A stretch of 64,000 bases of DNA from an uncultured Candidatus Poseidoniales archaeon (GTDB taxonomy: Archaea > Thermoplasmatota > Poseidoniia > Poseidoniales > Thalassarchaeaceae). The stretch is taken from NCBI GenBank assembly GCA_964618995.1, contig CAZUBQ010000004.1, positions 14,601 through 78,600 on the forward strand, read 5' to 3'. Positions 827 through 55,996 of the stretch are shown one piece after another (within the stretch, counting starts at the first letter, position 1; every line of letters starts with the position of its first letter). Position numbers and translations under genes: made by a program. Below the pieces are notes generated by a model, which did not search any database, had not been told where the DNA came from, and saw only the letters and a list, made by a program, of their open reading frames with translations.

Positions 827-3800
827 TCAATGATTCTCCCGCACCCAGTCGCGCAGTTGATTGATGTCCCATCCTTGATCGAAGTAACCCTGAATGGTCG
901 CCTCGTCCCAGAACGAGAACTCATCGAGCGCTTGTTGCATCTCCAGGCTCTGACTCGGTGGACCGCTGACTGGAGGACCGCCTCCGCCATATCCTGGCGG
1001 AGTGGAGGACCCAGTGCCCTCGTATCCAACCGCCTCGCGGCCTTGGTATCCCGGCGGACCGCGGCTGATAGGCTCCACGGCTTCACCAAGAGGCAGGTAG
1101 TCCTCGTCCTCAAGGAAGAAATCATCGTCTTCCTCGCGGCGCCGTCCGAGCACCATCAGCACGACCACCACCAGCGCGATGAGGATGAGCACACCGGCGG
1201 CTATCCCCCCAATCACCCACAGATCCATGCCTTCTGCGCCGCTGCTGCCAGCAGCGCGGACGTGGAACTGTTCTGACTCACTGAGCAGGTTGCCATCGGA
1301 ATCATAGATAGTGAATATGACACCGTTGAGCGGCTGCGGGAACGGATCGACGGGCACGCGGCAGAGGTCCTGCATGTTCGGCTGCCAGGTGATACCGCAG
1401 TCATGAGTGAAATTTCCCTGCTGAGTGCCGTTGATGACAATGAACACCTCAAGCGACAACTGGCCGGCCTCGGTGCCCACGTTGGTCACCTGTAGCAGGA
1501 TATCGAATGCAGACATTGCCTCAGGCTGCCCGGTCGAGAGATCGACTCGGTCAATGCGGAATTCAGCCTGCTTGAACACCAGATCGTATTGCCCACCCTC
1601 GAGCGATACCCCAAACGTCCCGCCGGTCACCGGGTTCACCTGGTTACCCGCCGAATCCTCACCGGTCACCCAGAAACGGATATCCACGCCGGCAAGTTCC
1701 TTGGGGAGGGTGTGTCCCTCCCAAAGATCCACGCAATGCATGTTCACCTTGTTCGATTGAAGGTCGATGTTAGCTGTGCGAGTCTGCCACGGTTCTGGGA
1801 AGGTCGTGCGATATGACGACCAGTTGAAGTTGTCCTGGAAGAACATCCAGTTGATGGACATGGAGTCGCTGTTTAGCCTCTGCAGTTCGTCGACGGTGAA
1901 TTCGATGTCCACACAACCGATTGACGAAGATGGCAGCAGTTCCTCGATCAGTTCACCGGTGATACCCGAGCGCATCTTCCAAGAACCCCAGATGACCGAG
2001 GGGGCATCGTCGTCCACCTTGGCGTAGAAGGTGCGGTCCACCTCGGGAGAGAAGTCTGTGGCACCCTCGGGGATGTCGTCAATAGAGAACACGTAGCGAT
2101 ACTCGTTCGTGGCCAGTGCAGCCGAGATGAGCAACTCGAATGTGCCGTTCTCGAACTGGTACTCTTCGGTCTGCGTGCTGGACGCGACATAACCGAGGCT
2201 GGACTCGCCGCCCGGGTAAATTGGTGTGCGGGTGACCTTCAGGGTCATTGGAATCTGTGGCTTGACATCGATGCCCGCCTCCAGTGCGTCCTTGAAGCGA
2301 TATGAGCCTTTGAGCAGCAGCAGGTCACCGGGCCTGGTGTATCCTCCGTCCTGAGCACCGATTGAGGAAGTGATGAATCCAGAGGTGTCCTCGAGTGAGA
2401 ATGAGGCCAAGTCGAACTTCATCCCGCTTGAGTAAATCCAACGCTGTTTGTAGCGACTGGCCGACAACTTGCTCTCCTGGTTATCCGGGTCGAGATCCTT
2501 CATGTAGACATCCGGCTCAACCACGCCACCGACAGTCGGCACGCTCCAATGGAGGCGAATCGGCATGTTGAGTTGGAACTCGGTCTCGAACGGATCGATG
2601 AGTACGGTCCCGTCGGCCTTGGTCAACCGCGTACCCACACCGTCGTTGGTGACGTTGAGGATGTCCACCCACTGGCTGTCGGTCCACGCAGAGCCGTTGC
2701 GCGGTGAGAACCAGAGCACCATGTCGTTGGTGACGTACGGGTTCAGGTCAATCTTGATGTAATCAAGATCGCGCCAGCCGTTGTCGTCCTTGCCATCGAC
2801 GAGCAGGTGGTAGACGTTACCTGCGTACATCGACTTGTTGAACTCTGTTAGTGGGTTGTTGTATGCATCCGAGATGTGCAGTGAGTAAACACCCGGAGCA
2901 CGCGAATCGAGGCCGATGTAGGTAATCAGATCGTTCGCGAATCCGGCTGCGCCACCATTGATGGCGTTGCCACCGATATCTGTGCCGACCACGAACAGAC
3001 TTGTGCGCGGGGCGGTATCTCCCTCTGGAATGTTCAGTCCGGTCTGCTGGTCGTCGAGGCAGTCATTGTGCGGTGGACAGATCGGGTTGTCCAGTTCGTA
3101 GGTGGTATTGCCGAAGGCGTCGACGAATATCGGCACAAGACTGACTGTGCGATACTCGATGGGCTCAGGAATACGGTTGTCGTTGTCATCGTGCTGCGCC
3201 TCGACCCAGTGATAGAGCAGCAGTTCGTCCGGGGCTTGAGGGAAATCGCGTGCAACGACTCGGAACTTCTGATTCGACGCCGGCGGAATCCAAGTATCGT
3301 CTGTGAGTTCGCGCCATTCGGATATCATGTCCCAGACGCTGATATTCACCAACACGGGCGCGTACGTGTCGATGTTCAGAACGATGCGGATGGCGCAGTC
3401 GGAATCGGGATTGTACTGTGCTGGCGGACAGAGGGTGTCTCCGCCGCTGTAGTCAGCGATGCGCAGGCGGTAGGTGTCGGTGCCGGCGGCGGTTGCAGCG
3501 ATGGTAGGCTGCCATTCAAAGTCACCTCCGATGATGCTCGCCAATCTGTCGACCTCAATCCAATGGCTGAAGTTCGACTGATTCTGTAACTCGAACACGA
3601 GGTTGTAATCCGCTGGGTCGGGCGACTCGGCGAGGTTCTCGAAGCGGACCGAACCATTGAGCGTGATTACCTGACTGCTGGAGGCGTTGGTCAGGTCAGG
3701 TTGCAGGATTCCGCCCTGATTGTAGAGATCGAGTCGCTGGATGAGCGCGTCGTTCTCGACCGCGTTTCCAACCGCCGGGTTGAGCATCAGCGCAGCGGGG

Positions 3801-6652
3801 AGTCCCTCTGAACCGGAAGTGGTGATCATCGTGGCGAACACCCTGACTGTTGGTGAATCCTGCCAGTCGCTGTTCACACGGAAGCGCCAGAGCACCTGCT
3901 TCCCGTCCGCAACGTCGGTGGCCAAAGACTGCATCACCATCAGTGACAACATCGTCTCGTCTCCACGCTCCCAGAAGGAATCGTTGGCAGCCGTCCACAG
4001 GAACTCAGCATTGCCCGACTCGGACTCAAACTGCAGGCTGGCATGGGCAATCGTCTCACCCGTGCTCACCGACAACGAGTGGGTCGTGACCACCTCGTAG
4101 ACATCCCCGTTCGCATAGAGCCCAGACCAACTGCCCGTCGTGTTGAGCGTGTTGTCGTATCCGCTCTCGGTGGTCACCAGGAGATTCTTCAGTTTGACTG
4201 CACCGCCAGTATCTCCCCCAACACTGATTGGCACGAAAACCTGACCACCCACAGGAGCATTCAGCGCCACGCCCTGATTCAATTCACGCGCCAAATCGTG
4301 TGTGGCCCCAAGGACGACCTTCCATTCGTAGAAGATATCCAAGTCGCGCATGGTGATGCTGGAACCGACTCCTGCAGTTCCGTTCTCCAATTTGAAGCGG
4401 AACTGCACCCACTCGTTGCCGAACTCATCTATGACCGCCGCCGGCACCTGCGGGTCGTCGAGCAGCGCCTGCAGTTCGTCAGAGAACTGGCCGAGCGCCA
4501 ACCAGTTGTCGGGGGTCATCTCCAATCTGTTATCTGTAAAACCGAGGTGCTGCTCCTGATTGGCGGCGAGTAGCGTGATCGAGGCGTTGCCGACGTAACT
4601 GTCGGAGAAGGACACCTCGGCGTGGGTCACGTTGGCGTCCTTTGGAAGCAGGAACGGCGCGCCCTCAGCCCTACCGTTGACCGCCATGCTCATCGACATG
4701 GACTCGGCGCGCATGTTCACGCCGTTGACGACCTGGCTACGGAAGTAGCTCTGCCGTCCGTAGGCACCGAACGCCGGATGGGTGATTCCCCATTGCAAGT
4801 CGTTGTCGCCGGCGACATCTATGGTGAGGTTCTCAGAACTGTGCGCGAACTCGAGTTCCAACCAGAGGCCAGTCACAGTGCACTGTGCTGGATACATCAC
4901 TGCCAACCCCACGCCTGTCGAGGGGATGGGGACACCGTCCGCAGTGGTGTTGAAGTCGTACCACTGATTGCTGGTGGCATGCATGAATTCGCCTGATTTC
5001 GAATTGTAGGGATAGAGCATGATGTCGCCGTTGCCACAGTCATCCTCCACTATCGGTTTCGCTGCTACTATTGGCATCGAGAACCTATTCATGATCTTCG
5101 CAGGTGTCCACGTCGTGTCCTTGATTTGGGGCGTGTAGAATATCATACCCCCCATCTGTTCCGCAGTCCACGCTCCTGGTATGAACGAGCCTCCCATGGC
5201 TTCGACTCCCGCCATGTTTCGCAGTCCGGTTCCAATCTTGGTTCCAAGACTGAAACCGTAGAGAACCGGGGTTCCGATTCGGCTGGATCCGCTGTCGTAA
5301 TTGAAACGGAAGTTGAGCAGCGAATAGACAGAGGTGTCGACGTCCCACAACTCAATCGTACTGCCAGTCAATCCGCTGAGCACATTTCCGTGAACGTCAA
5401 CGACCAACTGATTGTTCGACGCGTCGTAGACATCGATGTTGAAACTGGCACCCGGAGGGGTCGCCGACTCGATGCTGAGCACTCCGAATCCATCGGGGAA
5501 GCCGTTGTTCTGGGAGGCCATGTTCGAGAACGGACCCATGTCGACGTAACCGGTTTGGGGTAGTGGATCTCCGGCGCGCATCGTGTCGATGTACCAACCC
5601 TGCATCGAACCGTTGCCTGGGGCGGCGGTGTGGACGTTGCGCTCAAGCACGAACATCAGTTGGACGTACATGTTCTCGTAAGCTGAGAGATCGAGAGCCA
5701 AGGTCGCCCACTGCAGGCTGCCGGCTGTACCGCCGTCGCTCTGCCCAGCGAGAACCCACGCATTGGCGGGAACAGTGATGGTACCCTTGCCGCTGCACCC
5801 TGCCGTCACCTGATTGAGGAGCGTGCCACGCTGGAACATGCCGTGCTGTCCGGGGCTGATTCCTGTTGAGTTGCCTCGGTCGATGTCGTGGAATCCCCAT
5901 GGACTCCAACTCGACGCATCCATCGACTCTCGGAGGGCGACGTAGGCGCAGTCATCGTAGTACTTGCCCGTACCGGAGTTGCGGTAGTAGAGCGAGTGCA
6001 GAGACTTGAGCGTCGCCTGACTCTTGCCGGGGTGAATCTGAATCGTTCCGGACATCAACTCGTACTGGAACTCGGTAGCCAGCGAGTCATCGGTGTAGTC
6101 GGGATCGACAAAGTTGGTCCCCCAGCAGGTGGATCCAGTAGCGCACCCCGTGGGCAGAATGGGGCTGGGCAGGGTGAGTTCTCGCTCCCAGTTGAATATG
6201 TCAACCGCTGCACCAGGGGTGAAACCCTGTGCGCTGGTCTCGAAGTCAGCGTTGAAACCCTTGCTGGTGAGCGCCAGTTCGTCTTCGGTCGTTGTGAAGT
6301 CGCAATTCGATATAGAGGTCTGGTGGCATCCGGCGCTGCTGTACGACAGCATGTTGTTGAAGCGTGCATCCCAGATGTTGTTCTGCACCGTTGAATCGTA
6401 GGAACGGTGGAACGCAAGGGTGGCGAAATCATTCTGCACCTCGACTGACGCTGAGGTCACGGTCTCCCCTTCCGGCAGGGATACCTGACCTGTGACTGTG
6501 TTGAGATAATTTCCTGGGTCTCGTAGTTCGACCTTCACTTCAGTCTCGGTGTTGGCGAAGGTGTTGACTGTGGCGGCATGTACCACCGTTGTTGAGAATA
6601 TCATCACGGCGACCACCATCAGGCAGCATAGTGTCTTTCGGCGTTCATTCAT
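827..6652 (-). CDS. Giant (~1940 aa) cell-surface protein with an N-terminal signal peptide, a large extracellular region, a C-terminal TM helix and a Gly/Pro-rich cytoplasmic tail.
   Basis: ORF 827..6700. Signal-peptide-like MNERRKTLCCLMVVAVMIFSTTVVHA. C-terminal IGGIAAGVLILIALVVVVLMVLGRRREEDDD. Start chosen at the Met preceding the signal peptide; alternative starts lie up to 6700. Confidence 0.75.
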   Translation of the reverse strand: MNERRKTLCCLMVVAVMIFSTTVVHAATVNTFANTETEVKVELRDPGNYLNTVTGQVSLPEGETVTSASVEVQNDFATLAFHRSYDSTVQNNIWDARFNNMLSYSSAGCHQTSISNCDFTTTEDELALTSKGFNADFETSAQGFTPGAAVDIFNWERELTLPSPILPTGCATGSTCWGTNFVDPDYTDDSLATEFQYELMSGTIQIHPGKSQATLKSLHSLYYRNSGTGKYYDDCAYVALRESMDASSWSPWGFHDIDRGNSTGISPGQHGMFQRGTLLNQVTAGCSGKGTITVPANAWVLAGQSDGGTAGSLQWATLALDLSAYENMYVQLMFVLERNVHTAAPGNGSMQGWYIDTMRAGDPLPQTGYVDMGPFSNMASQNNGFPDGFGVLSIESATPPGASFNIDVYDASNNQLVVDVHGNVLSGLTGSTIELWDVDTSVYSLLNFRFNYDSGSSRIGTPVLYGFSLGTKIGTGLRNMAGVEAMGGSFIPGAWTAEQMGGMIFYTPQIKDTTWTPAKIMNRFSMPIVAAKPIVEDDCGNGDIMLYPYNSKSGEFMHATSNQWYDFNTTADGVPIPSTGVGLAVMYPAQCTVTGLWLELEFAHSSENLTIDVAGDNDLQWGITHPAFGAYGRQSYFRSQVVNGVNMRAESMSMSMAVNGRAEGAPFLLPKDANVTHAEVSFSDSYVGNASITLLAANQEQHLGFTDNRLEMTPDNWLALGQFSDELQALLDDPQVPAAVIDEFGNEWVQFRFKLENGTAGVGSSITMRDLDIFYEWKVVLGATHDLARELNQGVALNAPVGGQVFVPISVGGDTGGAVKLKNLLVTTESGYDNTLNTTGSWSGLYANGDVYEVVTTHSLSVSTGETIAHASLQFESESGNAEFLWTAANDSFWERGDETMLSLMVMQSLATDVADGKQVLWRFRVNSDWQDSPTVRVFATMITTSGSEGLPAALMLNPAVGNAVENDALIQRLDLYNQGGILQPDLTNASSSQVITLNGSVRFENLAESPDPADYNLVFELQNQSNFSHWIEVDRLASIIGGDFEWQPTIAATAAGTDTYRLRIADYSGGDTLCPPAQYNPDSDCAIRIVLNIDTYAPVLVNISVWDMISEWRELTDDTWIPPASNQKFRVVARDFPQAPDELLLYHWVEAQHDDNDNRIPEPIEYRTVSLVPIFVDAFGNTTYELDNPICPPHNDCLDDQQTGLNIPEGDTAPRTSLFVVGTDIGGNAINGGAAGFANDLITYIGLDSRAPGVYSLHISDAYNNPLTEFNKSMYAGNVYHLLVDGKDDNGWRDLDYIKIDLNPYVTNDMVLWFSPRNGSAWTDSQWVDILNVTNDGVGTRLTKADGTVLIDPFETEFQLNMPIRLHWSVPTVGGVVEPDVYMKDLDPDNQESKLSASRYKQRWIYSSGMKFDLASFSLEDTSGFITSSIGAQDGGYTRPGDLLLLKGSYRFKDALEAGIDVKPQIPMTLKVTRTPIYPGGESSLGYVASSTQTEEYQFENGTFELLISAALATNEYRYVFSIDDIPEGATDFSPEVDRTFYAKVDDDAPSVIWGSWKMRSGITGELIEELLPSSSIGCVDIEFTVDELQRLNSDSMSINWMFFQDNFNWSSYRTTFPEPWQTRTANIDLQSNKVNMHCVDLWEGHTLPKELAGVDIRFWVTGEDSAGNQVNPVTGGTFGVSLEGGQYDLVFKQAEFRIDRVDLSTGQPEAMSAFDILLQVTNVGTEAGQLSLEVFIVINGTQQGNFTHDCGITWQPNMQDLCRVPVDPFPQPLNGVIFTIYDSDGNLLSESEQFHVRAAGSSGAEGMDLWVIGGIAAGVLILIALVVVVLMVLGRRREEDDDFFLEDEDYLPLGEAVEPISRGPPGYQGREAVGYEGTGSSTPPGYGGGGPPVSGPPSQSLEMQQALDEFSFWDEATIQGYFDQGWDINQLRDWVRENH

Positions 6653-6738
6653 TGTCATCATCCCATAAACCGCTACGCGGTTCAGCGTACGCAGCCTCAT
6701 TTCGCATTTAACCCCGTTGGGCTTGCGCCCAACCCTCG

Positions 6739-19070: not shown

Positions 19071-21755
19071 TCACAAGCGGCTCTGTCGACCTCGTAGCAA
19101 TCCTGTGTGATGACCTGAAAGACGGCGGGCCAGCCTGTCGGCGATGTGCGCCTCGCCAGCAGCGACCTCGGCCGCCGAAAAATCAGGCCAAGTCCCCTGT
19201 ACACGAGCGAGCCAGCCCACGTGCTGATGGGTGCGGCCGCTGGAAGGAGCGGTCTTGGAGTTCGCATCGGTGAGGGCATTCGCCAGATCGAGCAGGGCGG
19301 CGGCGCCCGGCATATCCGCTAACTCGTCCTCGCCGGGCCATCCTGGTTGCACGTGCAGTCTGTTCAGACGATCGCGCAGCACGGCGCTGCATCCGGGGTG
19401 CTCCTGGAATCCGGCTCCGGGGACCCTGCACAACTCCCCAGGTGAGCGTAGAATCGCCGCTGGCCAACTGACATCGGCTGAGGCGAGCAGTTCCCGCCCA
19501 TCCGGCTCGTCAAGAAGCTGCATCAACTGCTGTTCGGCTCGAGATGCCCACCAGTCGAGTGGAAGTTCCAGTAATACGGGAAGCACAGTGCGAGGGGGCG
19601 GTTCATCCTGCTCATAGCAAGTCAGCAACGCCTCCCATGCTGCAAGATGCGAATCAGGTTCACCCGCAGTCGCTGCCTCACGCAACGGCGTCGCCCACCC
19701 CTGTTCCAATCGGCCTTGCTGCTCAAGCCAATCGAGCGCCGAGAGTGCTTCGATGACGTTAGCGGGCGGAGATTTCGCCAACCTCTGTACGACCCATGTC
19801 GGCAGGTCGCGCATCAGCGCTGAGCCGAGCCATGCGACCTGTGAGGTGAGCGCCGCCGCCAGCCAGCATGAGGCGGCTTCGTCGAGGCTGCCATCATCGA
19901 CGAGCGGGCGCAGCCTGAGTCCTAAGTCCGCCTCACGGCGCAGGTTGTCGGTCAGATACTGATGGGCTGCTCGCTCCCATTCCCGCGGTGCGCTGGCAGC
20001 GACCGAGGCTAGACTCGCCAACGGTACCATCTCAACTGAAAGCAGACCGATCCACTGCTCGCCCAGTTGTTCACCGCAGCGCAGCCATCGGGACCAACGC
20101 CGTTCGGCCGGGCTAGCCACCCAAGATGCATGGGAATCGACATTCTCCATGCGGTCGGCCCATTCGACATCTCCGTCGGGATATCTCAACAGAGCAGAGA
20201 GCATACGCAAACCCGGATCGTCATCGGCCCCAACCTCCGGAGCTACCGCCCCGGCAGCCCATGCAGCAGCCGACTCCGCGGCTGCCTCTACCTCGTACGC
20301 GCCCGCGGGCGCTGACCAGTCACCGGGAAGGGTGGCGGGCGCTGTGGGTGGCCTCTGGGTGAGCCGGACTGGCAGAGAGACATCGGTCGCGAGTTGCAGC
20401 CTCACGAACGGCAGCGGGTGTACCGGGTCTGGCCTGAGAGTAGGATGACCCGTGGGGGGCCTCCCTTCCTCGGGGAGCAGGAGCATGCGCAGACGGGCCG
20501 ATGCGAGCAGGGTCTGCAGTAATTGATCATCCACTTTGCCTGGAGGGTGTTGAAGAACCACTTGCGGTCCTTCGGAATCACGCATTGACCATTCAAGCAG
20601 CGATAGCCAGGCGGTTTCACTCAACCCACGCACATCGAGCAGCCGGGGTGGTGAAGTCCCGCTCTCCGACCAGCTACGCTCACCCCAGTCGTGCAGCAAC
20701 CTGCGCCAGGTCGACTCATCGCAGCGATGAGAGGCGCCGCGCCGGGATTCGCCAGCGCGTGAGAGATGGCGCTGCAGGCTCTCCAGCCGACGGTTGCGCT
20801 CAGCGGTGGTCAGACGAGGGTGAGCGCGCTCGACCCAGGTCTCCAAGGCAGCGAGCGGCAATGGCCCGGATGGCCTGCCCAAGAGACTCGACTCAGCGAT
20901 GATGAGGGCGTCGTGCGCCGCTGCGGTGAGTACCATCGAGGAAGCAAGCCTGTCATCGAGGCTGGCGACAACCGGACCTGCAGGTCGCACAGAAGGCGTC
21001 GCAGGATGCGCCTCACCCAGACTCCACTCCGGTTCGGCGCCCGGTGGCGGACTCGGGACAGGAGGCCACTCATCCTCATCCGGTTCTCCGAACCATTCTC
21101 CCACCGCAAGGCGCAACTCACGGCGCGGGTCGAGCAGACGGGCGCGCAGCAGGCCAATCACATCAGCAGTGTCAGTCCACGCCTCGAGGCTCTCAGGAGA
21201 TTTCGCTCGCGGGGGACTCGAACGGAGTTCGAACGTGTTCAGGTCGAACCATCGAGGTTCCCGTTCGCGCGCCACCGCCCAGACCCATTCCAGCATGACC
21301 CCCGCGGTTCCAGTGGAGGGGGCTTGAGGGTCGGCAAGGGATATTTCGGGCGTGCGCGGCAGTGGAATCAGAGGGGAAGCAGGCTCCTTCGCGTAAGCAA
21401 GCAGCAGTTGCGGGCCATCCCTCGCCAGCAGACAACCCACCTTGTTCGGCGGTCTTCCACCCTCAAGGAATCCATGCATACGTGCCAGTTCGTCCTCTCC
21501 CAGACAGTTCCACCCGGCCGCTGTCAAATGCAGGCGACCCCCACGACTCCCCTCCTCCGCATCGCTGGCAACCAAACCGTCCTGACGCATCCGCTTCAAC
21601 TCCGCCGAAGCGTGAGGAAGGCGCAGTCCCACAGCCAAGGCGATTCCACTGACCGTGTCCCCACCATCAGCGAGGTGATCGAGCATGCGACGTCGGTAGC
21701 CGCTGCGGATCCTGCGCGGCGGCCTCGCCGGCGGCCTCGCATCCTCTTCCACCAT
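19071..21755 (-). CDS. Large (894 aa) hypothetical protein with an N-terminal winged-helix DNA-binding domain. Very GC-rich and Ala/Arg/Leu/Pro-rich.
   Basis: N-terminal MLDHLADGGDTVSGIALAVGLRLPHASAELKRMRQDGLV has an ArsR/TrmB-like wHTH shape. The rest matches no family I recognise. Uninterrupted 2.7 kb ORF. Confidence 0.5.
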   Translation of the reverse strand: MVEEDARPPARPPRRIRSGYRRRMLDHLADGGDTVSGIALAVGLRLPHASAELKRMRQDGLVASDAEEGSRGGRLHLTAAGWNCLGEDELARMHGFLEGGRPPNKVGCLLARDGPQLLLAYAKEPASPLIPLPRTPEISLADPQAPSTGTAGVMLEWVWAVAREREPRWFDLNTFELRSSPPRAKSPESLEAWTDTADVIGLLRARLLDPRRELRLAVGEWFGEPDEDEWPPVPSPPPGAEPEWSLGEAHPATPSVRPAGPVVASLDDRLASSMVLTAAAHDALIIAESSLLGRPSGPLPLAALETWVERAHPRLTTAERNRRLESLQRHLSRAGESRRGASHRCDESTWRRLLHDWGERSWSESGTSPPRLLDVRGLSETAWLSLLEWSMRDSEGPQVVLQHPPGKVDDQLLQTLLASARLRMLLLPEEGRPPTGHPTLRPDPVHPLPFVRLQLATDVSLPVRLTQRPPTAPATLPGDWSAPAGAYEVEAAAESAAAWAAGAVAPEVGADDDPGLRMLSALLRYPDGDVEWADRMENVDSHASWVASPAERRWSRWLRCGEQLGEQWIGLLSVEMVPLASLASVAASAPREWERAAHQYLTDNLRREADLGLRLRPLVDDGSLDEAASCWLAAALTSQVAWLGSALMRDLPTWVVQRLAKSPPANVIEALSALDWLEQQGRLEQGWATPLREAATAGEPDSHLAAWEALLTCYEQDEPPPRTVLPVLLELPLDWWASRAEQQLMQLLDEPDGRELLASADVSWPAAILRSPGELCRVPGAGFQEHPGCSAVLRDRLNRLHVQPGWPGEDELADMPGAAALLDLANALTDANSKTAPSSGRTHQHVGWLARVQGTWPDFSAAEVAAGEAHIADRLARRLSGHHTGLLRGRQSRL

Positions 21756-22054
21756 GCACTCCGCTCCACTTCAGGCACCTAACGGCAGGTGCTCAGCCCG
21801 TTCTGTCTGCATACATGACTTCAAACCTTTGGTTTATTACAATTTATTACCGATTTCCAGTGGAGAAAGTTTCAATTTGATACTCACAGTAGGAATCAAA
21901 CCCTGATGAGTAGTGAGAAAGTAGTCACATTCCGTAACTAACGTGGCTCATCTGTGGCAACGGTTATATCACCGACATAGGTGCACTGGAATAGCCGGCG
22001 TTGACTACTGGACGCGCCGCATATTGAGAGCCAATTGAAGGGGGAAGAAGAAGC

Positions 22055-22582
22055 ATGAAGACAGTACGAATCCGAGAGAAGATCAAGTTGTTCCTATCAG
22101 AACGCCCGCGCAACACCGCGGAGATTCTGGAGCACATCAACACGACCATGCGCCACGGCACCACCAGCCAGCAGTTGGGCAATGTGCTGTCAAAGGACAA
22201 GGACATCGTGAAGGTAGGATACATCAAGCGCAGCGGCATTCTTTCTGGGGGCTACGACATTTGTGAATGGGCGACGGTGATATGGGTTCAGGAACACGTG
22301 AACGACTGGGCACCTGGTGACCCGATCCTACTGGACAAGAAGACGGGAAACAACCTCCTGCTCAGTAGTCCGGATGCAAACAAAACCCCCAAGCTTGACG
22401 CCGCCTCAGTGACTCAACCCGCGCGCCAGCAGCCAGCCAAGAACCTGAACAACCTGGTTGTCAAGGAACTGAAGGATTTGCTGCGCCAAGCCGGTCTCAA
22501 AGTCGGCGGTACGAAGCAGGAACTAATCGACAGGCTCGAGAAGCACAGTCTGCGAGTCGATTTCGACCCAATGCACGCCTGA
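22055..22582 (+). CDS. DNA-binding protein with an N-terminal wHTH-like region and a C-terminal SAP domain.
   Basis: C-terminal LVVKELKDLLRQAGLKVGGTKQELIDRLEKH is a SAP (SAF-A/B, Acinus, PIAS) helix-extended-helix motif. The gene has lower GC than its neighbours. Confidence 0.6.
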   Translation: MKTVRIREKIKLFLSERPRNTAEILEHINTTMRHGTTSQQLGNVLSKDKDIVKVGYIKRSGILSGGYDICEWATVIWVQEHVNDWAPGDPILLDKKTGNNLLLSSPDANKTPKLDAASVTQPARQQPAKNLNNLVVKELKDLLRQAGLKVGGTKQELIDRLEKHSLRVDFDPMHA

Positions 22583-22617: not shown

Positions 22618-23094
22618 CTAGGATTGTTCCTTGAGCGGAAGTTCGAGCAAGCGGGGGCCCTGCGCCATCCACTCCATTCCATCTCGTACCCATTCCCACA
22701 TCTCGTGTAGACGGTCGGCGTCGACTCCTGCATAATCAGCAATCGTTCTGATGGCGTCCACCTCGGACGGATGGATCTCGCCATCGGCGGCGGCTAGGAA
22801 GATGCCATCTCTGAGGGCGAGCCTGAGAGTACGGACGTCCATTCCAGCAATCGTCTCCTCAATGTCGTCGAACTGCTGACGCAGCAGTGCGCGGAATTGC
22901 ACTCGTAATTTCGGATTGATGAGCATGCGCCCCATGCGCCACTCAAAGAAGGACATTTCCTCCGGTTTGAGTACGGCGTCGGCGTTGGCTATGATTGAAA
23001 GCACCGTCATGTACTCATCCATGTCGATGGCGTCGAACGCGTCGGGTGCTGAGGGCTTCATCATTGACCGGCCGGCCATGAGGCTACGTATCAA
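22618..23094 (-). CDS. TerB-like (tellurite-resistance TerB / DjlA N-terminal domain family) protein.
   Basis: AADGEIHPSEVDAIRTIADYAGVD is an ADGxxxxxE TerB-type motif on an all-helical ~150-aa protein. Confidence 0.5.
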   Translation of the reverse strand: MIRSLMAGRSMMKPSAPDAFDAIDMDEYMTVLSIIANADAVLKPEEMSFFEWRMGRMLINPKLRVQFRALLRQQFDDIEETIAGMDVRTLRLALRDGIFLAAADGEIHPSEVDAIRTIADYAGVDADRLHEMWEWVRDGMEWMAQGPRLLELPLKEQS

Positions 23095-24171: not shown

Positions 24172-24340
24172 GCTGGTTCCTCCCCCCTCGCGAGCGGGCT
24201 GCGTGACTTCAATTAATCGACCCCTACGATTAGCGCTTGAATAAATTACTAATTTGTAACCTGCTGCAATAAATAATATCTCATTAATTACGAAACATTA
24301 TACATAACGCTCTATACATCGTGAGAGCCCGAGAGGTATC

Positions 24341-24940
24341 ATGATGGCTCCGAGAATCTGTGGTGAATGCAACAAACCGGGTCATAATAGACGGACCTGC
24401 CCTCTACTGAATCCTAAAGCGGCCGCACATCGCATATCAATCGCCAAACGTAGGCGTGGAATGAGGATCTGTGGTCATTGCGAAGATGTAGGGCACAACG
24501 TGCGCACTTGTCCGGACCTGCATCCTGAGAAAGCGGCCAAGAGGCGATCACGCGGAGGAAGGTCGAAACGCAGAACATGCAGGGAGTGTGGAAAAACTGG
24601 GCACAACAAGCGCACCTGTCCGAAACTCTACCCAGACAAGGCGGCGAAGCGCAAGTCGAGTCGTCGTAGGCGACGCATCTGTAGTGGATGCGGTAAGATC
24701 GGACACAATTCCCGCACATGTCCAATACTCAATCCTGACCGAGTTCAGCCTCGGCGCGGCAGGCGCGGCAAGCGAGTCTGTGGTCACTGCGACCAATCAG
24801 GACACAACCGCCGCACCTGTCCTGAATTGCACCCTGACAGGGCAGTCATTCGCATGGCACGCAACCGCAAGGGAAAGCGCAAGTGTGGCGTATGCGGGAA
24901 GCGCGGGCACAACAAACGCACCTGTCCCAAGGCGATGTGA
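24341..24940 (+). CDS. Protein composed of six tandem retroviral-type CCHC zinc knuckles (CX2CX4HX4C) separated by Arg/Lys-rich linkers. Predicted RNA/ssDNA-binding protein, CNBP/nucleocapsid-like.
   Basis: Six repeats: CGECNKPGHNRRTC, CGHCEDVGHNVRTC, CRECGKTGHNKRTC, CSGCGKIGHNSRTC, CGHCDQSGHNRRTC, CGVCGKRGHNKRTC, each followed by P.L.P and a basic linker. An AT-rich promoter-like region lies upstream (24172-24340). Confidence 0.8.
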   Translation: MMAPRICGECNKPGHNRRTCPLLNPKAAAHRISIAKRRRGMRICGHCEDVGHNVRTCPDLHPEKAAKRRSRGGRSKRRTCRECGKTGHNKRTCPKLYPDKAAKRKSSRRRRRICSGCGKIGHNSRTCPILNPDRVQPRRGRRGKRVCGHCDQSGHNRRTCPELHPDRAVIRMARNRKGKRKCGVCGKRGHNKRTCPKAM

Positions 24941-24944
24941 TTCG

Positions 24945-25139
24945 ATGGCAACCGTCACCTGCCCCAAGTGCGGGCAGGCAGACGAGGTCGAGGCTGCTAC
25001 GGAATCCTGCCTGTTCTTCCACGAGTGCTCAGGTTGCCAGGTCCTGCTGAAGCCGCTCACCGGTGATTGCTGTGTCATCTGTTCCTTTGGCGATGAAAAA
25101 TGCCCACCTAAACTCGACGAAGAATCCTGTTGTGATTGA
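24945..25139 (+). CDS. Small (64 aa) cysteine-rich zinc-ribbon-like protein.
   Basis: MATVTCPKCGQ...HECSGCQVLLKPLTGDCCVICSFGDEKCPP...ESCCD has 12 Cys in 64 aa. It starts 4 nt after the zinc-knuckle gene stop. The longer ORF 24588..25139 is rejected because it overlaps the upstream gene. Confidence 0.5.
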   Translation: MATVTCPKCGQADEVEAATESCLFFHECSGCQVLLKPLTGDCCVICSFGDEKCPPKLDEESCCD

Positions 25140-52819: not shown

Positions 52820-55800
52820 TCATTCACCGCCCCAGCGGTCTTCCATGTCGTCTGTTCTCCGTAGAGCGATTCCGAGCCCGACGGCACCACCCAGGAGCAA
52901 CAGGCCGACGAGCACCAGAATGACCAGCGTGCTCGATGAGAACTCGAGGAACTCCTTGCCGGGATCGGTCAGGATGTTCGTCTCTGGCTCGGTGAGCATC
53001 ACCTCGACGCGCACTACCGGATCAGTGGCCGCCACGAACAGATCGACTCCGCGGAACTGCAGTTCTACGGGGCTGCCGGTCGGTAGGCCCTCGCGTACCT
53101 GCACCTCGATGGAATAGACTCCGTCGTCGGCGACAGCATCTGCTCCTTGGCCGTTGTCGGTCATCAACTGCCAATTCAGATCCTGACCTATGGGAGCGAG
53201 TGACATCAGCCGCGTCTGGACAGCGGAAACTCCGTCAGGGTCTTGCACCGCGACCGTGATCACATAGACCGAGGAACCTGAGCCTGTGTCCGGGACCACG
53301 ATCTCGGTTACAGCTGCGCCATCCTTGTAGAGAGTGAACTCGCTGATCGCCGGCCCTTCGTTGAGGATGTGCAGCCAAGGAACGGGGGAGGTCACCACTT
53401 CAGAGGAATCGGGGTCAGGAATGGCCGAACTGGCTACCCATTGACCATCGACATGGACCACTTGACGCGTCGCCCATGCGCCGGCACCGTCCTCGAGGTA
53501 GACCGTCAGCCGCAGGTCACCCGGCACCAGCGATGTGGGAATCTGCACCGTTCCTGACCATGAGTTGCCGCCATCGTCCGAAAGGTCAACGAGAGAGCCA
53601 CCCTCAGAGCGGAAGTCGACGGCCGTCCGTGCCACACCTAAGGCATCCCAAGCCTGGATGCTGACAGTGAGGTTCTCACCGCGGTGGACCGAATCGGTGG
53701 ACATCTGGAAGTCTGTCATTCGTGGTGCGCGGTGCGTCACCAGCAGTGTTGCTGTGGAATCGGTTGTAGAGGTGAACGAGTCGGTGACGGTCACCGGTGT
53801 GGACAGGTTACCCGCATCGGTTCCGGTGTAGACGAACGAGCCAGTGTAGATGTCGTCGTGGACGATCGAATCTCCGTCGAGCCCGATGTCATTCAGGTCG
53901 AGCGTGCCGAGGCCCATCGACGAGAGGTCGACGCTGACCGTGCGCACGTTCCAGTCAGGGTCGGAGATGACCGCCTCGACGTGCACGAGTCGGCCTCCTT
54001 CGTTGACCACACTCCCCTCCTGCAAACGGAAGTCGCCGATTTGTGGCGGCGTGTTCTCCGACTCGCTGATGATCGCCGGTGAGATGACTCGCTCGAGCGA
54101 CTGCACTTCGGTGAAGTTCAGCAGTTCGTCGACACCGATGTCGATACTGACTTCGCGCTGCACCTCTGCGATGAGCCCAGCGAGGATTCCGTTGTTGACC
54201 ACAGAACCCGAGGCGGTGCCCACACCACTGTATGTGCCGTTCCAGGTGGTGACCTGCATCAAATGCCCATCACGCGTGAACGTGTCGTATCCGTCGGCCA
54301 CTAGATCGAGCCACATCAGGTCGCTAGCATACAGGGAGAGCGAATCTCCCGGCAACATTTCGGTGGGCGCGAACCCAGCTTCTCGACTGATGTTCACATC
54401 TCCGAGCATGCTCTCGTCAGGGGTGTCATTCTGGGGAGTTGGGGCGATGGGGGAGTCCGGTGGCCATTCCTCACCCTGACTAGGGTCGTCGGACTGCTCG
54501 TCCCAGCGGAAGCGGATGGTGCGATTGGTGTAATTGTCGTAGACCACTTCGTAGTCGTGTGTCTCGTTGTAGTAGGCGCCCACGCCGAGATCACCCAGCA
54601 CACCTCCCCCAGTGATGTTGTACCACACCTCCTGATGAATCAGGTTGATCGGCCACAACACTCCGGTGTCGTTCGCCGTCTCACCTGTGCTCTGAATGCC
54701 GCGCAAGATACCAAAACTCCCACTGGTAGCTCCTGAGATATCGCCATCCAGATGGATGCTGTCAGCGGTCTTGTTGCCGTTCTGGCTCTCGAAGAAGAAC
54801 TCGATTATGTCCCCTGAAATCACGATTGACCCGTTTTCGTCATTGGTATCGCTGAACAGGAAGGAACCATCGCCGAGGAAGCGACTGAACTGGCTCACCA
54901 TGGTCCCGTTCTCTGTTCGTTCTCTGCTGATGAGTTGGTCAAGGTCGAAATCCAGGTATCCCTCATCTGTCTGAGTGTGCATCTGGGCAGTCGCTTCGAA
55001 CTCGATGTTGTTGAGCACGCGCTCACCGCCGACATCCTCGGTCTCCACCAGCAGAAGAGAAAGAGAGCCGTTGATCCACGTCTCCTCATCCCCATCCTGC
55101 GTAGAGATGTTCAGCATCCCATTCGCCTCGAGACGAATCGCCTCTGAAACTATGCCATCAGCGAGCGAGCGAGTGATGTACGAGTCGACGACATTGGCGG
55201 TTATCACCGTATTATCTCCTTCGTCATCCGTGTTCAGGACGAGGTTTCCTGCCCCGGCCATCTCAAACATCTGGCTGTCCAGTTCGGCGCCGACCATCGT
55301 CTCGTTGAGCCATATGCGAGTCAACTGCAGCGTGATCACCATGTTCGTGTCATCGGCAGTCTCGTTGATGACCAGCGTGCCAGTCCCGAGTTCATTGTGT
55401 TCGAGAATCTGGGCTGTGCGCTTCTGCCAACCCTGACCAGCGAAGTCGAGTTCGTAACTCTCCGAATCGCTCCCATCGGCAATCGAGTGCTCCAACTCCC
55501 ACTGCGTGGCGACCGTTACCTCGTGGTCCGCCAACGGTTGGTTCCACAGAGTCGCTACGACGGTTCTCGTCGCGGATGGAACCGAACCTTGGTCCATCCA
55601 CACTTCAACATCGACGGAATCAGCGAACGAGAGATTGGTTGGGACTACCACACGGTAGTGGGTGGAGTCTATCGGGTCGAGAGAGTTGTTCTCATCGCCC
55701 CAGAGATAAGTCCAGGATCCTAAAGCAGTCCCGTTCACATCAGAGTGAGTGACGTTCACCAACCAGTCGCTCGGGTCCGGAGCGGAACTGAATTCGATGA

Positions 55801-55996
55801 CGTAGCCGTGTTCAGCATGGTCATCACCGTCATCGTCAACCCAATCCACGTGGATGGTGATGTCAGGGAGTGATTGCCCCTGTGCAATCACAAGGGGTCC
55901 AGTGCTGACTCCGAGCATCAACAGAAGAACAAGCGTAGGCAGTAATCGAGAGGATTCTCTCACCATGGAGGTTGATGCGTTCGGTTCCCTCATCAA
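52820..55996 (-). CDS. Large (~1050 aa) secreted cell-surface protein with an N-terminal signal peptide and a C-terminal TM anchor.
   Basis: LLPTLVLLLMLGVSTGPLVIAQG signal peptide. C-terminal LVILVLVGLLLLGGAVGLGIALRRTDD. Asp/Thr/Asn-rich extracellular region. Confidence 0.75.
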   Translation of the reverse strand: MMREPNASTSMVRESSRLLPTLVLLLMLGVSTGPLVIAQGQSLPDITIHVDWVDDDGDDHAEHGYVIEFSSAPDPSDWLVNVTHSDVNGTALGSWTYLWGDENNSLDPIDSTHYRVVVPTNLSFADSVDVEVWMDQGSVPSATRTVVATLWNQPLADHEVTVATQWELEHSIADGSDSESYELDFAGQGWQKRTAQILEHNELGTGTLVINETADDTNMVITLQLTRIWLNETMVGAELDSQMFEMAGAGNLVLNTDDEGDNTVITANVVDSYITRSLADGIVSEAIRLEANGMLNISTQDGDEETWINGSLSLLLVETEDVGGERVLNNIEFEATAQMHTQTDEGYLDFDLDQLISRERTENGTMVSQFSRFLGDGSFLFSDTNDENGSIVISGDIIEFFFESQNGNKTADSIHLDGDISGATSGSFGILRGIQSTGETANDTGVLWPINLIHQEVWYNITGGGVLGDLGVGAYYNETHDYEVVYDNYTNRTIRFRWDEQSDDPSQGEEWPPDSPIAPTPQNDTPDESMLGDVNISREAGFAPTEMLPGDSLSLYASDLMWLDLVADGYDTFTRDGHLMQVTTWNGTYSGVGTASGSVVNNGILAGLIAEVQREVSIDIGVDELLNFTEVQSLERVISPAIISESENTPPQIGDFRLQEGSVVNEGGRLVHVEAVISDPDWNVRTVSVDLSSMGLGTLDLNDIGLDGDSIVHDDIYTGSFVYTGTDAGNLSTPVTVTDSFTSTTDSTATLLVTHRAPRMTDFQMSTDSVHRGENLTVSIQAWDALGVARTAVDFRSEGGSLVDLSDDGGNSWSGTVQIPTSLVPGDLRLTVYLEDGAGAWATRQVVHVDGQWVASSAIPDPDSSEVVTSPVPWLHILNEGPAISEFTLYKDGAAVTEIVVPDTGSGSSVYVITVAVQDPDGVSAVQTRLMSLAPIGQDLNWQLMTDNGQGADAVADDGVYSIEVQVREGLPTGSPVELQFRGVDLFVAATDPVVRVEVMLTEPETNILTDPGKEFLEFSSSTLVILVLVGLLLLGGAVGLGIALRRTDDMEDRWGGE

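What the first reader, a model, noticed from the sequence alone, without database searches (positions are those of the whole stretch)
24172..25139. Six tandem retroviral-type CCHC zinc knuckles in an archaeal protein, with a co-located Cys-rich mini-protein
The 199-aa product is essentially six CX2CX4HX4C knuckles (for example CGECNKPGHNRRTC) joined by Arg/Lys-rich linkers. That architecture is characteristic of eukaryotic CNBP/ZNF9, Lin28/Air2-type proteins and retroviral nucleocapsids, which bind RNA and ssDNA. It is rare in prokaryotes and I do not know a described archaeal family with this layout. The repeats are well diverged at the DNA level, which argues for an old, selected protein rather than a recent slippage artefact. 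The gene follows an unusually AT-rich 170-nt leader. Four nucleotides downstream is a 64-aa protein with 12 cysteines (CPKCG...CSGC...GDCCVICS...CCD). The pair looks like a nucleic-acid chaperone or small-RNA-binding module of possible eukaryotic or viral origin.
Basis: partly seen in the sequence, partly recalled or inferred. Interest (0 to 1): 0.75.

Follow-up and report, generated by a model that had tools for sequence, protein, structure and literature searches.

The report
Patchy multi-zinc-knuckle protein of marine archaea
This is a real, strongly conserved gene for a very basic protein made of six zinc knuckles, found as a tandem array only in Marine Group II archaea and only in some of their lineages; it probably binds nucleic acids, and the small cysteine-rich gene after it is a known metal-associated family, not an obligate partner.

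Summary
Gene 24344..24940 (+) encodes 198 aa (199 from the upstream ATG) with six C-x2-C-x3-GHN-x-RTCP knuckles. Linkers are disordered and polycationic (pI 11.5, net charge +48, no Phe or Trp).

It passes Pfam zf-CCHC_2 and zf-CCHC_4. It fails the canonical retroviral/CNBP model PF00098 and lacks the aromatic base-stacking residue.

A tandem-knuckle DNA pattern scanned over 185,579 prokaryotic species gave 62 stretches. Five (Nocardioides, Kofleriaceae) are non-coding repeats; the rest are Poseidoniales (Marine Group II) contigs, and 55 yielded a 4-7-knuckle ORF, at one syntenic site wherever flanks are held. dN/dS is 0.06-0.08.

The gene is accessory. In a sample anchored on a neighbouring gene, only 9 of 39 lineages carry it. 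One near-relative has collapsed six knuckles to one by recombination between repeats.

The 64-aa neighbour (11 Cys) belongs to NCBIfam GDCCVxC, which sits in bacterial mer operons. It follows the knuckle gene in about a fifth of loci and also occurs alone, so the pair is not a module.

The best reading is an accessory Zn-dependent nucleic-acid binder or chaperone; this function is inferred, not shown. I found no publication describing the family. Eukaryotic or viral origin is unresolved.

The parts
24172..24343 (.). Divergent intergenic and promoter region between the class I aldolase gene (-) and the knuckle gene (+). It holds a conserved AAACATTATACATAA (24294-24308, TATA-like) and a GAGGT Shine-Dalgarno-like box (24333-24337).
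   Evidence: GC drops to 0.37 against about 0.6 in flanking genes, and a comparable dip lies at 21825-21974. Alignment with L152, L161 and L149 shows the conserved blocks. The promoter role is inferred.
24344..24940 (+). Gene for a 198-aa polycationic protein with six zinc knuckles (an alternative start at 24341 gives 199 aa).
   Evidence: ORF. Pfam zf-CCHC_2 and zf-CCHC_4 above cut-off. dN/dS 0.06-0.08 against L149, L152 and L161. Orthologs with 4-7 knuckles in 55 Poseidoniales-type loci.
24359..24400 (+). Knuckle 1, CGECNKPGHNRRTC
24470..24511 (+). Knuckle 2, CGHCEDVGHNVRTC
24578..24619 (+). Knuckle 3, CRECGKTGHNKRTC
24680..24721 (+). Knuckle 4, CSGCGKIGHNSRTC
24779..24820 (+). Knuckle 5, CGHCDQSGHNRRTC
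24884..24925 (+). Knuckle 6, CGVCGKRGHNKRTC
24945..25139 (+). Gene for a 64-aa acidic (pI 4.2) protein with 11 Cys, a member of the GDCCVxC family. It starts 4 nt after the knuckle gene's stop, so it is probably co-transcribed, but it is an optional neighbour.
   Evidence: NCBIfam NF041374 scores 75.4 bits against a cut-off of 40. dN/dS 0.12-0.28. Bacterial homologs sit in merR-merT-merP operons. Present in a minority of loci and alone in L241.

Best explanation
Shown:
- 24344..24940 is a functional, vertically inherited but dispensable gene of Poseidoniales (Marine Group II archaea).
- It encodes 4-7 (here 6) copies of a 32-37-aa unit with consensus G-R-R-[IV]-C-S-x-C-G-x-x-G-H-N-x-R-T-C-P-x-L-[NH]-P-E-[RKA]-A-x-[RK]-R.
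- Copy number changes, and the gene is lost, through recombination between the conserved 20-26-nt cores of the repeats.

Inferred:
- Each unit folds around one Zn2+ held by Cys0, Cys3, His8 and Cys13, giving six small independent knuckles on a flexible, strongly cationic chain ('beads on a string').
- This polyvalent cation binds nucleic acids. It most likely coats or bridges RNA or single-stranded DNA and lowers the barrier to refolding and annealing, like a CNBP or nucleocapsid chaperone. A general nucleoid-associated role is possible.
- Because the knuckles lack the aromatic residues that stack on bases in retroviral and CNBP knuckles, contacts would come from the basic linkers plus the conserved Arg-2, Asn9, Arg11 and Thr12 rather than from base stacking.
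- The downstream GDCCVxC gene is a separate, optional thiol-rich metal-binding protein that happens to share the transcript in some lineages.
For: Real gene:
- dN/dS is 0.06-0.08 at dS 0.33-1.2.
- It is intact in all close relatives.
- A GAGGT Shine-Dalgarno-like box and a conserved upstream block precede it.

Knuckle identity:
- PF13696 and PF14392 score above gathering cut-offs, and 27 of 27 orthologs match both.
- Weak but consistent PDB matches go to TUT4/7, retroviral Gag/NC, XRN and Air2 knuckles.

Extended unit:
- Over 281 units the conserved positions are R-2 91%, G7 96%, N9 98%, R11 90%, T12 96%, P14 78% and P18 95%.

Beads on a string:
- The AlphaFold single-sequence model gives knuckles a pLDDT of about 70-75, linkers below 50 and pTM 0.18.

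Charge:
- pI 11.5, net charge +48, 30% Arg+Lys.

Lineage restriction and vertical descent:
- The pattern scan of 185,579 species genomes gave 62 stretches. Five are non-coding bacterial repeats. Of the other 57, all Poseidoniales-type, 55 yielded a knuckle ORF; two short or end-cut loci (L131, L157) did not pass the ORF filter. Both families (Poseidoniaceae and Thalassarchaeaceae) are represented, at one syntenic site next to the aldolase, GlpX, MoaC, MoaE and DUF3860 genes wherever flanks are held.

Dispensability and mechanism of change:
- Only 9 of 39 dereplicated lineages anchored on the DUF3860 gene carry it.
- L207 has six knuckles. L225 and L205, whose flanks are 93-98% identical to it, carry a single fused knuckle ORF, MSDNFFYICSNCNEKGHNRRTCTQ*.
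Against: - No binding, zinc or expression data exist; the organisms are uncultured.
- The knuckles lack the aromatic residue used for base recognition in every well-studied nucleic-acid-binding CCHC knuckle (1 of 281 units; the window protein has 0 Phe, 0 Trp and 1 Tyr).
- Some CCHC knuckles, such as those of Air2, mediate protein contacts instead (my own knowledge).
- Gene neighbourhood (gluconeogenesis and molybdopterin genes) gives no functional hint.
- Frequent loss shows the function is not essential, which argues against a main chromatin protein. Marine Group II archaea are reported to encode MC1 for that role (PMC7613761).
Confidence: 0.55

Rival explanations
1. Metal handling. The six Cys3His sites make the protein a zinc reservoir or buffer, or a sink for thiophilic metals. 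It would work with the GDCCVxC protein (and the nearby TerB-like protein) as a small metal-stress island.
For: - The protein has 24 metal ligands in 198 aa.
- In the window's lineage the gene is followed 4 nt later by a GDCCVxC gene, whose bacterial relatives sit in merR-merT-merP operons and next to MerR-type regulators and metal efflux genes.
- A TerB-domain gene lies two genes away in the same subset of lineages.
Against: - The knuckle gene occurs without GDCCVxC or TerB in every Poseidoniaceae-type locus examined and in L149. GDCCVxC occurs without the knuckle gene in L241.
- Non-ligand positions (G7, N9, R11, T12, P14, P18) and the 30% Arg+Lys content are strongly conserved, which a pure metal store would not need.
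- No metal transporter or regulator lies nearby.
Confidence: 0.12
2. Protein-interaction scaffold. The knuckles are docking modules for another protein, such as an RNA-processing enzyme, as the Air2 knuckles are for Trf4. They would not be direct nucleic-acid readers.
For: - The base-stacking aromatic residue is absent.
- A conserved Pro-x-[LIV]-[NH]-Pro-Glu tail follows each knuckle and could be a peptide-like ligand.
- A profile of the family weakly matches Air2 in the PDB (E = 0.0068).
Against: - Net charge of +48 and Arg-rich disordered linkers are the hallmark of nucleic-acid binders.
- No conserved partner gene lies in the neighbourhood.
- The Air2 match is no better than the matches to nucleocapsids.
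Confidence: 0.1
3. One reading: a two-gene nucleic-acid-chaperone or small-RNA-binding module recently acquired from a eukaryote or a virus.
For: - The GHNxRTC knuckle subtype is abundant in plants, in eukaryote-like plankton proteins with 4-10 knuckles, in phages and in giant-virus bins.
- The distribution within Marine Group II is patchy.
Against: - The site is identical in both families of the order, and sequence types track taxonomy, so the pattern is ancient presence plus repeated loss, not recent transfer.
- No mobile-element genes flank it.
- No viral ORF in 122 viral loci has more than 2 knuckles or the archaeal tail motif.
- The best non-archaeal hit is only 34% identical, and that identity lies in the motif residues.
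- The two genes are not linked.
- No hit in the PADLOC defence-system library.
Confidence: 0.08
4. Spurious ORF or slippage artefact in a GC-rich genome.
For: None beyond the repetitive nature of the sequence.
Against: - dN/dS is 0.06-0.08 at high dS.
- There are 55 orthologous ORFs.
- The motif occurs 6 times against 0.01 expected.
- The DNA repeats are only 60-70% identical.
Confidence: 0.01

Closest known systems
CNBP/ZNF9, yeast Gis2, trypanosomatid HEXBP/UMSBP (eukaryotic multi-knuckle ssDNA/RNA chaperones)
   Same: A small protein that is almost nothing but 5-9 tandem C-x2-C-x4-H-x4-C knuckles with short basic linkers. The predicted beads-on-a-string layout matches.
   Different: - The window protein misses the PF00098 cut-off.
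- It has no aromatic residue after Cys1 (1 of 281 units).
- Its unit is extended by a conserved P-x-L-[NH]-P-E-x-A tail.
- Its linkers are much more Arg-rich.
- No CNBP ortholog appears among the named hits of the first search; the exhaustive library carries no names.
- It is archaeal, accessory and lineage-restricted.
Retroviral and retrotransposon nucleocapsid (NC) zinc knuckles, Pfam PF00098
   Same: Same ligand spacing, a basic context, and weak sequence matches to Gag/NC chains in the PDB.
   Different: NC has 1-2 knuckles with Phe or Trp that stack on guanines (my own knowledge). Here there are six knuckles and no Phe or Trp at all. The gene sits in no retroelement context.
Pfam zf-CCHC_2 (PF13696, 'CX2CX3GHX4C') proteins, e.g. 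land-plant proteins with a C-terminal four-knuckle cluster (P0014, P0027, P0062)
   Same: This is the best-scoring Pfam family (39.4 bits against a cut-off of 27). The plant proteins carry the identical GHN-x-RTCP core.
   Different: The plant proteins have other N-terminal domains, four knuckles, non-repetitive linkers and no archaeal tail motif. Their function is also unknown.
Phage-type two-knuckle proteins (e.g. L008 ORF 4977-5597, P0040, P0042, P0051)
   Same: Same GHN-x-RTCP knuckle subtype. They are common in marine viral contigs (at least 120 stretches).
   Different: They have only 1-2 knuckles followed by a C-terminal domain of roughly 130-150 aa, and no basic repeat array. None of 122 viral loci has 3 or more knuckles.
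GDCCVxC domain-containing (seleno)protein, NCBIfam NF041374 (for the 64-aa neighbour)
   Same: A full-length match at 75.4 bits against a cut-off of 40, with the GDCCVIC motif. It is about 50% identical to plasmid-borne bacterial members.
   Different: Bacterial members lie in mer operons or next to MerR regulators. Here there are no mer genes. Instead it follows a zinc-knuckle gene, or stands alone at the same site (L241).

Membership tests
CCHC zinc-knuckle superfamily (Pfam zf-CCHC families) | Ligand spacing C-x2-C-x4-H-x4-C | tested here: met
   There are six exact copies in the window protein. All 281 units extracted by this spacing from the 56 family ORFs (55 loci plus the window) share a far more extended consensus. 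The DNA motif occurs 6 times against 0.01 expected by chance.
CCHC zinc-knuckle superfamily (Pfam zf-CCHC families) | Score above the curated gathering cut-off of a family model | tested here: met
   PF13696 scores 39.4 against 27 and PF14392 scores 33.1 against 27. All 27 orthologs match both families.
CCHC zinc-knuckle superfamily (Pfam zf-CCHC families) | One Zn2+ bound per knuckle | not testable with these tools
   Needs metal analysis of purified protein. The AlphaFold model gives compact knuckles with pLDDT about 70-75.
Canonical retroviral/CNBP-type knuckle (PF00098) | PF00098 gathering cut-off | tested here: not met
   The window protein scores 16.0 bits against 20.8. Twelve of 27 orthologs match at E <= 0.01, so the family straddles the boundary.
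Canonical retroviral/CNBP-type knuckle (PF00098) | Aromatic residue after Cys1 (base-stacking cleft) | tested here: not met
   Position +1 is Ser, Gly or Thr in 80% of units (S 139, G 56, T 30 of 281) and aromatic in 1 of 281. The window protein has 0 Phe, 0 Trp and 1 Tyr.
CNBP/Gis2/HEXBP family | Tandem array of 5 or more knuckles making up most of a small protein | tested here: met
   Six knuckles in 198 aa, and 4-7 in orthologs.
CNBP/Gis2/HEXBP family | Sequence orthology to eukaryotic CNBP | tested here: not met
   The best non-archaeal hits are unnamed metagenome proteins and plant PF13696 proteins at 34% identity or less, and no hit named CNBP was returned. The exhaustive library carries no names; its top-scoring hits are long eukaryote-like repeat proteins.
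CNBP/Gis2/HEXBP family | Single-stranded nucleic-acid binding and chaperone activity | not testable with these tools
   Requires EMSA, annealing assays or complementation.
GDCCVxC (NCBIfam NF041374), for ORF 24945..25139 | HMM score above cut-off and the GDCCVxC motif | tested here: met
   75.4 bits against 40, with the motif GDCCVIC.
GDCCVxC (NCBIfam NF041374), for ORF 24945..25139 | Location in a mercury or heavy-metal resistance locus, as in bacteria | tested here: not met
   Bacterial members sit in merR-merT-merP-GDCCVxC or next to a MerR-family regulator and efflux genes. No such genes lie within 10 kb here.
Proposed two-gene 'knuckle + Cys-rich' module | Consistent co-occurrence of the two genes | tested here: not met
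   GDCCVxC follows the knuckle gene in about 11 of 55 GTDB loci with a knuckle ORF and in 3 of the 9 anchored lineages that carry the knuckle gene. It is absent in L149, whose knuckle protein is 86% identical, and it occurs alone in L241.

The most novel reading that the evidence does not exclude
Marine Group II archaea carry a previously undescribed, lineage-specific analogue of eukaryotic CNBP and retroviral nucleocapsid. It would be an accessory RNA/ssDNA chaperone built from a new 32-37-aa 'extended knuckle' repeat that reads nucleic acid without aromatic stacking. Its copy number (1, 4-7) is tuned or lost by recombination between repeats. Its knuckle subtype is shared with marine eukaryotes and viruses, which may record an old exchange between these groups.
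Probability: 0.3. Interest if true: 0.65.

Novelty: new variant of a known kind. Interest (0 to 1): 0.5.

Why it matters
Poseidoniales are among the most abundant archaea in the surface ocean and remain uncultured, so conserved lineage-specific genes are some of the few handles on their cell biology.

A protein made only of zinc knuckles is a eukaryotic and retroviral hallmark. Finding a selected, order-restricted version in archaea, with a distinct repeat unit and no aromatic base-stacking residue, would do three things:
- It widens the known range of this architecture.
- It offers a natural test of how CCHC knuckles bind nucleic acids without stacking.
- Its presence/absence polymorphism gives a marker that can be correlated with ecology (temperature, depth, zinc).

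The analysis also removes a false lead: the neighbouring cysteine-rich gene is a known, independently distributed family.

Tried and rejected
- **Word-indexed protein search and exhaustive phmmer.** Neither returned full-length archaeal orthologs, only fragments (P0077, P0084, P0085) plus eukaryote-like and viral proteins. Family membership therefore had to be built from DNA scans.
- **Bacterial hits of that pattern (Nocardioides, Kofleriaceae).** These are non-coding DNA repeats with no CxxC half and were rejected. The contigs labelled 'Deltaproteobacteria SAG' and 'Yoonia MAG' have Marine Group II-type gene order on the held flanks and are treated as mis-assigned.
- **Positional orthology of individual knuckles between genera.** Only close relatives show a diagonal; distant pairs are uniformly about 50% identical. 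The age of the duplications cannot be read this way.
- **'Core chromatin protein' idea.** Rejected after the anchored sample showed absence in 30 of 39 lineages.
- **Defence-system idea.** No PADLOC hit. PHROGs gave only a weak hit to an unknown family.
- **Structure.** The single-sequence AlphaFold model has pTM 0.18, too low for a meaningful fold search, so none was run. Orthologs taken from loci cannot be submitted as an alignment to that tool.
- **Literature.** Searches for Poseidoniales or MGII with zinc knuckle or CCHC, for GDCCVxC and for PF13696 found nothing relevant.
- **Contexts of the nearest non-archaeal hits (P0030, P0007).** Uninformative: dense small genes with no Pfam hits.
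Full report
**1. What is in the sequence**

The ORF at 24341..24940 (+) is real and encodes six C-x2-C-x4-H-x4-C units. All six have the narrower form C-x2-C-x3-G-H-N-x-R-T-C-P. The corresponding DNA motif GGNCAYAAYNNNMGNACNTGY occurs six times in the 64-kb window, all in this gene, against 0.01 expected from shuffles.

The linkers are 19-23 aa long with net charge +6 to +9. The protein has pI 11.5, net charge +48, 30% Arg+Lys, no Phe, no Trp and one Tyr.

At the DNA level the repeats are only 60-70% identical over 88 nt. A 26-nt core stays 69-92% identical, and Tandem Repeats Finder does not call an array.

The likely start is the second ATG (24344, giving 198 aa), for three reasons:
- The first ATG is not conserved in L149.
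- Independent gene calls on other contigs start at MAPR.
- A GAGGT box lies 6 nt before the second ATG.

The 170-nt AT-rich stretch (GC 0.37) is the divergent intergenic region shared with the class I aldolase gene. A similar dip lies upstream of the next gene, so it is a normal promoter region and not an unusual leader.

**2. Domain identity**

- Pfam gives zf-CCHC_2 (PF13696) at 39.4 bits against a cut-off of 27, and zf-CCHC_4 (PF14392) at 33.1 against 27.
- zf-CCHC_6 scores 21.5 against 22. The canonical retroviral-type PF00098 scores only 16.0 against 20.8.
- Across 27 orthologs, 27 match PF13696 and PF14392, and 12 match PF00098 at E <= 0.01.
- PDB sequence searches give weak, consistent hits to the knuckles of TUT4/7, retroviral Gag/NC, an XRN exoribonuclease and Air2.

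It is therefore a bona fide CCHC knuckle protein of the 'CX2CX3GHX4C' subtype, not the retroviral/CNBP subtype.

**3. Who has it**

Exact copies of the neighbouring aldolase lie on marine metagenome contigs, and most of those places show the same gene order, including an archaeal Cdc6/Orc1.

I scanned 185,579 species-representative bacterial and archaeal genomes with a tandem two-knuckle DNA pattern. It returned 62 stretches.
- The five Nocardioides and Kofleriaceae stretches are non-coding DNA repeats that lack the CxxC half.
- The contigs labelled 'Deltaproteobacteria SAG' and 'Yoonia MAG' carry Marine Group II-type gene order on their held flanks and are best read as mis-assigned.
- All other stretches are Poseidoniales, from both Poseidoniaceae (MGIIa) and Thalassarchaeaceae (MGIIb).

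Of the 57 Poseidoniales-type stretches, 55 yielded an ORF with 4-7 knuckles. With the window protein, the 56 family ORFs split as 3 with four knuckles, 12 with five, 17 with six and 24 with seven. Spacing between knuckles is 27-39 aa. The two remaining loci (L131, L157) are short or cut at a contig end and did not pass the ORF filter, though tblastn finds a knuckle-protein match in both.

The conserved unit is longer than a knuckle: G-R-R-[IV]-C-S-x-C-G-x-x-G-H-N-x-R-T-C-P-x-L-[NH]-P-E-[RKA]-A-x-[RK]-R. Conservation over 281 units is R-2 91%, G7 96%, N9 98%, R11 90%, T12 96%, P14 78% and P18 95%. The residue after Cys1 is aromatic in 1 of 281 units.

Wherever enough flank is held, the gene sits at the same place in both families, in a block made of the DUF3860 gene, an aldolase, the knuckle gene, then GlpX, MoaC, MoaE and an FAD oxidoreductase, with family-specific order and orientation. 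In the window's own type a TerB-like gene also lies between the DUF3860 gene and the aldolase. In the anchored sample the block extends upstream to Cdc6, a glycosyltransferase, a CTP-transferase and an 894-aa gene. Sequence types follow taxonomy. This points to presence in the ancestor of the order.

**4. Selection**

Against orthologs 86-93% identical in protein, dN/dS is 0.06-0.08 at dS 0.33-1.2. This is a functional gene, and the linkers are constrained as well as the knuckles.

**5. It is accessory**

To avoid ascertainment bias I fetched 80 metagenome loci through the highly conserved DUF3860 neighbour. The surrounding synteny is kept, yet only 9 of 39 dereplicated lineages have the knuckle gene: 5 of 29 MGIIa-like and 4 of 10 MGIIb-like.

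Several loci show tight junctions where the gene would be:
- L219 has 80 nt between the aldolase and GlpX genes.
- L215 has 17 nt between the aldolase and the enoyl-CoA hydratase genes.

L207 has six knuckles. L225 and L205, whose flanks are 93-98% identical to it, have a clean deletion of about 500 nt between knuckle 1 and knuckle 6. That leaves a one-knuckle ORF, MSDNFFYICSNCNEKGHNRRTCTQ*. Recombination between the conserved cores of the repeats therefore explains both the copy-number variation and the loss.

**6. The mini-protein**

ORF 24945..25139 encodes 64 aa with 11 Cys and pI 4.2. It matches NCBIfam NF041374, 'GDCCVxC domain-containing (seleno)protein', at 75.4 bits against a cut-off of 40. 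Its dN/dS is 0.12-0.28.

In bacteria the family is on 352 plasmids in the collection searched. There it lies in merR-merT-merP-GDCCVxC operons or beside MerR-type regulators and efflux genes. It has no solved structure.

In Marine Group II its distribution is independent of the knuckle gene:
- It follows the knuckle gene in about 11 of the 55 GTDB loci that have a knuckle ORF, all of the MGIIb (class I aldolase) gene-order type.
- It is absent from L149, whose knuckle protein is 86% identical to the window's.
- It stands alone with its own AT-rich upstream region in L241, and survives only as a 3' remnant in L248.

The two genes are neighbours at a variable spot, probably co-transcribed here, but they are not a module.

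**7. Relatives outside the archaea**

The exhaustive search of 1.84 billion representative proteins found only 620 at E <= 1e-3. These include:
- long eukaryote-like repeat proteins with aromatic canonical knuckles (P0074, P0075);
- plankton-like proteins with 4-10 GHNxRTC knuckles but Q/S/A-rich linkers (P0076, P0078, P0080);
- land-plant four-knuckle proteins (P0014, P0027, P0062);
- fragments of the archaeal family.

The single-knuckle pattern saturates the viral collection (at least 120 stretches, covering phage-like contigs and giant-virus bins). Viral ORFs carry only 1-2 knuckles and never the archaeal tail. Among the 215 homologs retrieved in the two protein searches, only two archaeal fragments (P0077, P0084) carry the tail motif at least twice.

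The direction and age of any transfer cannot be decided from a 14-residue motif.

**8. How it probably works**

The single-sequence AlphaFold model gives compact knuckles (pLDDT about 70-75), linkers below 50 and pTM 0.18. That is a beads-on-a-string layout.

By analogy with characterised CCHC proteins (my own knowledge of NCp7, CNBP and plant cold-shock proteins with knuckles), I infer the following:
- Six Zn-stabilised knuckles sit on a polycationic chain.
- The chain binds RNA or ssDNA with high avidity and acts as a chaperone or architectural protein.
- Because aromatic stacking residues are missing, recognition must rely on the linkers and on the conserved Arg, Asn and Thr positions.

Marine Group II archaea are reported to use MC1 as their nucleoid protein (PMC7613761). 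Together with the patchy distribution, that makes a main chromatin role unlikely.

The rivals are a metal-buffering role, a protein-docking role and a recent foreign module. They are weighed in the rival section; none is excluded by experiment.

**9. Novelty**

Searches of the held literature found no description of a zinc-knuckle family in Poseidoniales. A paper on Poseidoniales-specific protein families does not list these Pfam families in its text or its held supplements.

The domain and the multi-knuckle architecture are known. New here are the archaeal, order-restricted family with its extended repeat unit, the absence of aromatic residues, and the recombination-driven presence/absence. 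I rate it a new variant of a known kind, of moderate interest.

Noticed in passing
window 22055..22582 (+): A DUF3860 domain (PF12976; PDB 2od5 'hypothetical protein', E = 7.6e-50) is fused to a eukaryote-like SAP domain (PF02037). Across nearly all the Marine Group II loci, tblastn matches to this gene that cover only the DUF3860 part are 73-89% identical, while neighbouring genes are 25-70% identical. The SAP tail occurs only in the window-type and related MGIIb lineages (query matched along its full 175 aa, e.g. L194-L200, L149, L152, L161, L148, L167, L177).
   Followed up: partly
L225 2432..2515 and L205 1883..1972 versus L207 8319..8963: The six-knuckle gene has collapsed to a one-knuckle ORF of 22-27 aa. 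The cause is a deletion of about 500 nt between repeat 1 and repeat 6 in contigs whose flanks are 93-98% identical.
   Followed up: yes
L241 8578..8762; L248 about 4640..4676: The GDCCVxC gene is present alone, without a knuckle gene, at the same syntenic site. In a close relative only its last roughly 35 nt remain. This is a hot spot of gene decay between the aldolase and GlpX genes.
   Followed up: yes
IMG/VR loci L010-L129; L008 4977..5597: A widespread phage-type protein family has two GHNxRTCP knuckles (MSYNGTVRCSYCYQxGHN...) and a C-terminal domain of roughly 130-150 aa with no annotation. In L008 it lies next to a gene that I read, from its Walker-type motifs, as a MoxR-like AAA+ ATPase and a possible VWA-type gene; these two neighbours were not scanned against Pfam.
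   Followed up: partly
L130, L139, L140, L189 (Nocardioides); L172 (Kofleriaceae): Non-coding tandem DNA repeats translate as GHNRRTC in one frame, and as ATTAARV or GPQPPHV in the others. They mimic the knuckle pattern and are a trap for motif scans.
   Followed up: yes
L137 ('Deltaproteobacteria bacterium' SAG AH-558-G13) and L188 ('Yoonia sp.' MAG): The held 8-kb stretches of these contigs, filed under bacterial names, carry the Marine Group II block (FAD oxidoreductase, MoaE, MoaC, GlpX, knuckle gene; L188 also the DUF3860 gene) at 46-75% identity to the window. They are probably contamination or mis-binning.
   Followed up: partly
window 827..6700 (-), 19071..21755 (-), 52820..55996 (-): Three very large ORFs (1957, 894 and 1058 aa) have no Pfam match at E <= 1e-3. 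The 894-aa one is syntenic across Marine Group II but only 24-50% identical outside the window's own lineage (92-94% within it).
   Followed up: no
window 22618..23094 (-): A TerB-domain gene (PF05099) is present only in the loci of the window type and its nearest MGIIb relatives, most of which also carry GDCCVxC after the knuckle gene (L149 is an exception). This may be a small metal-related cluster.
   Followed up: partly
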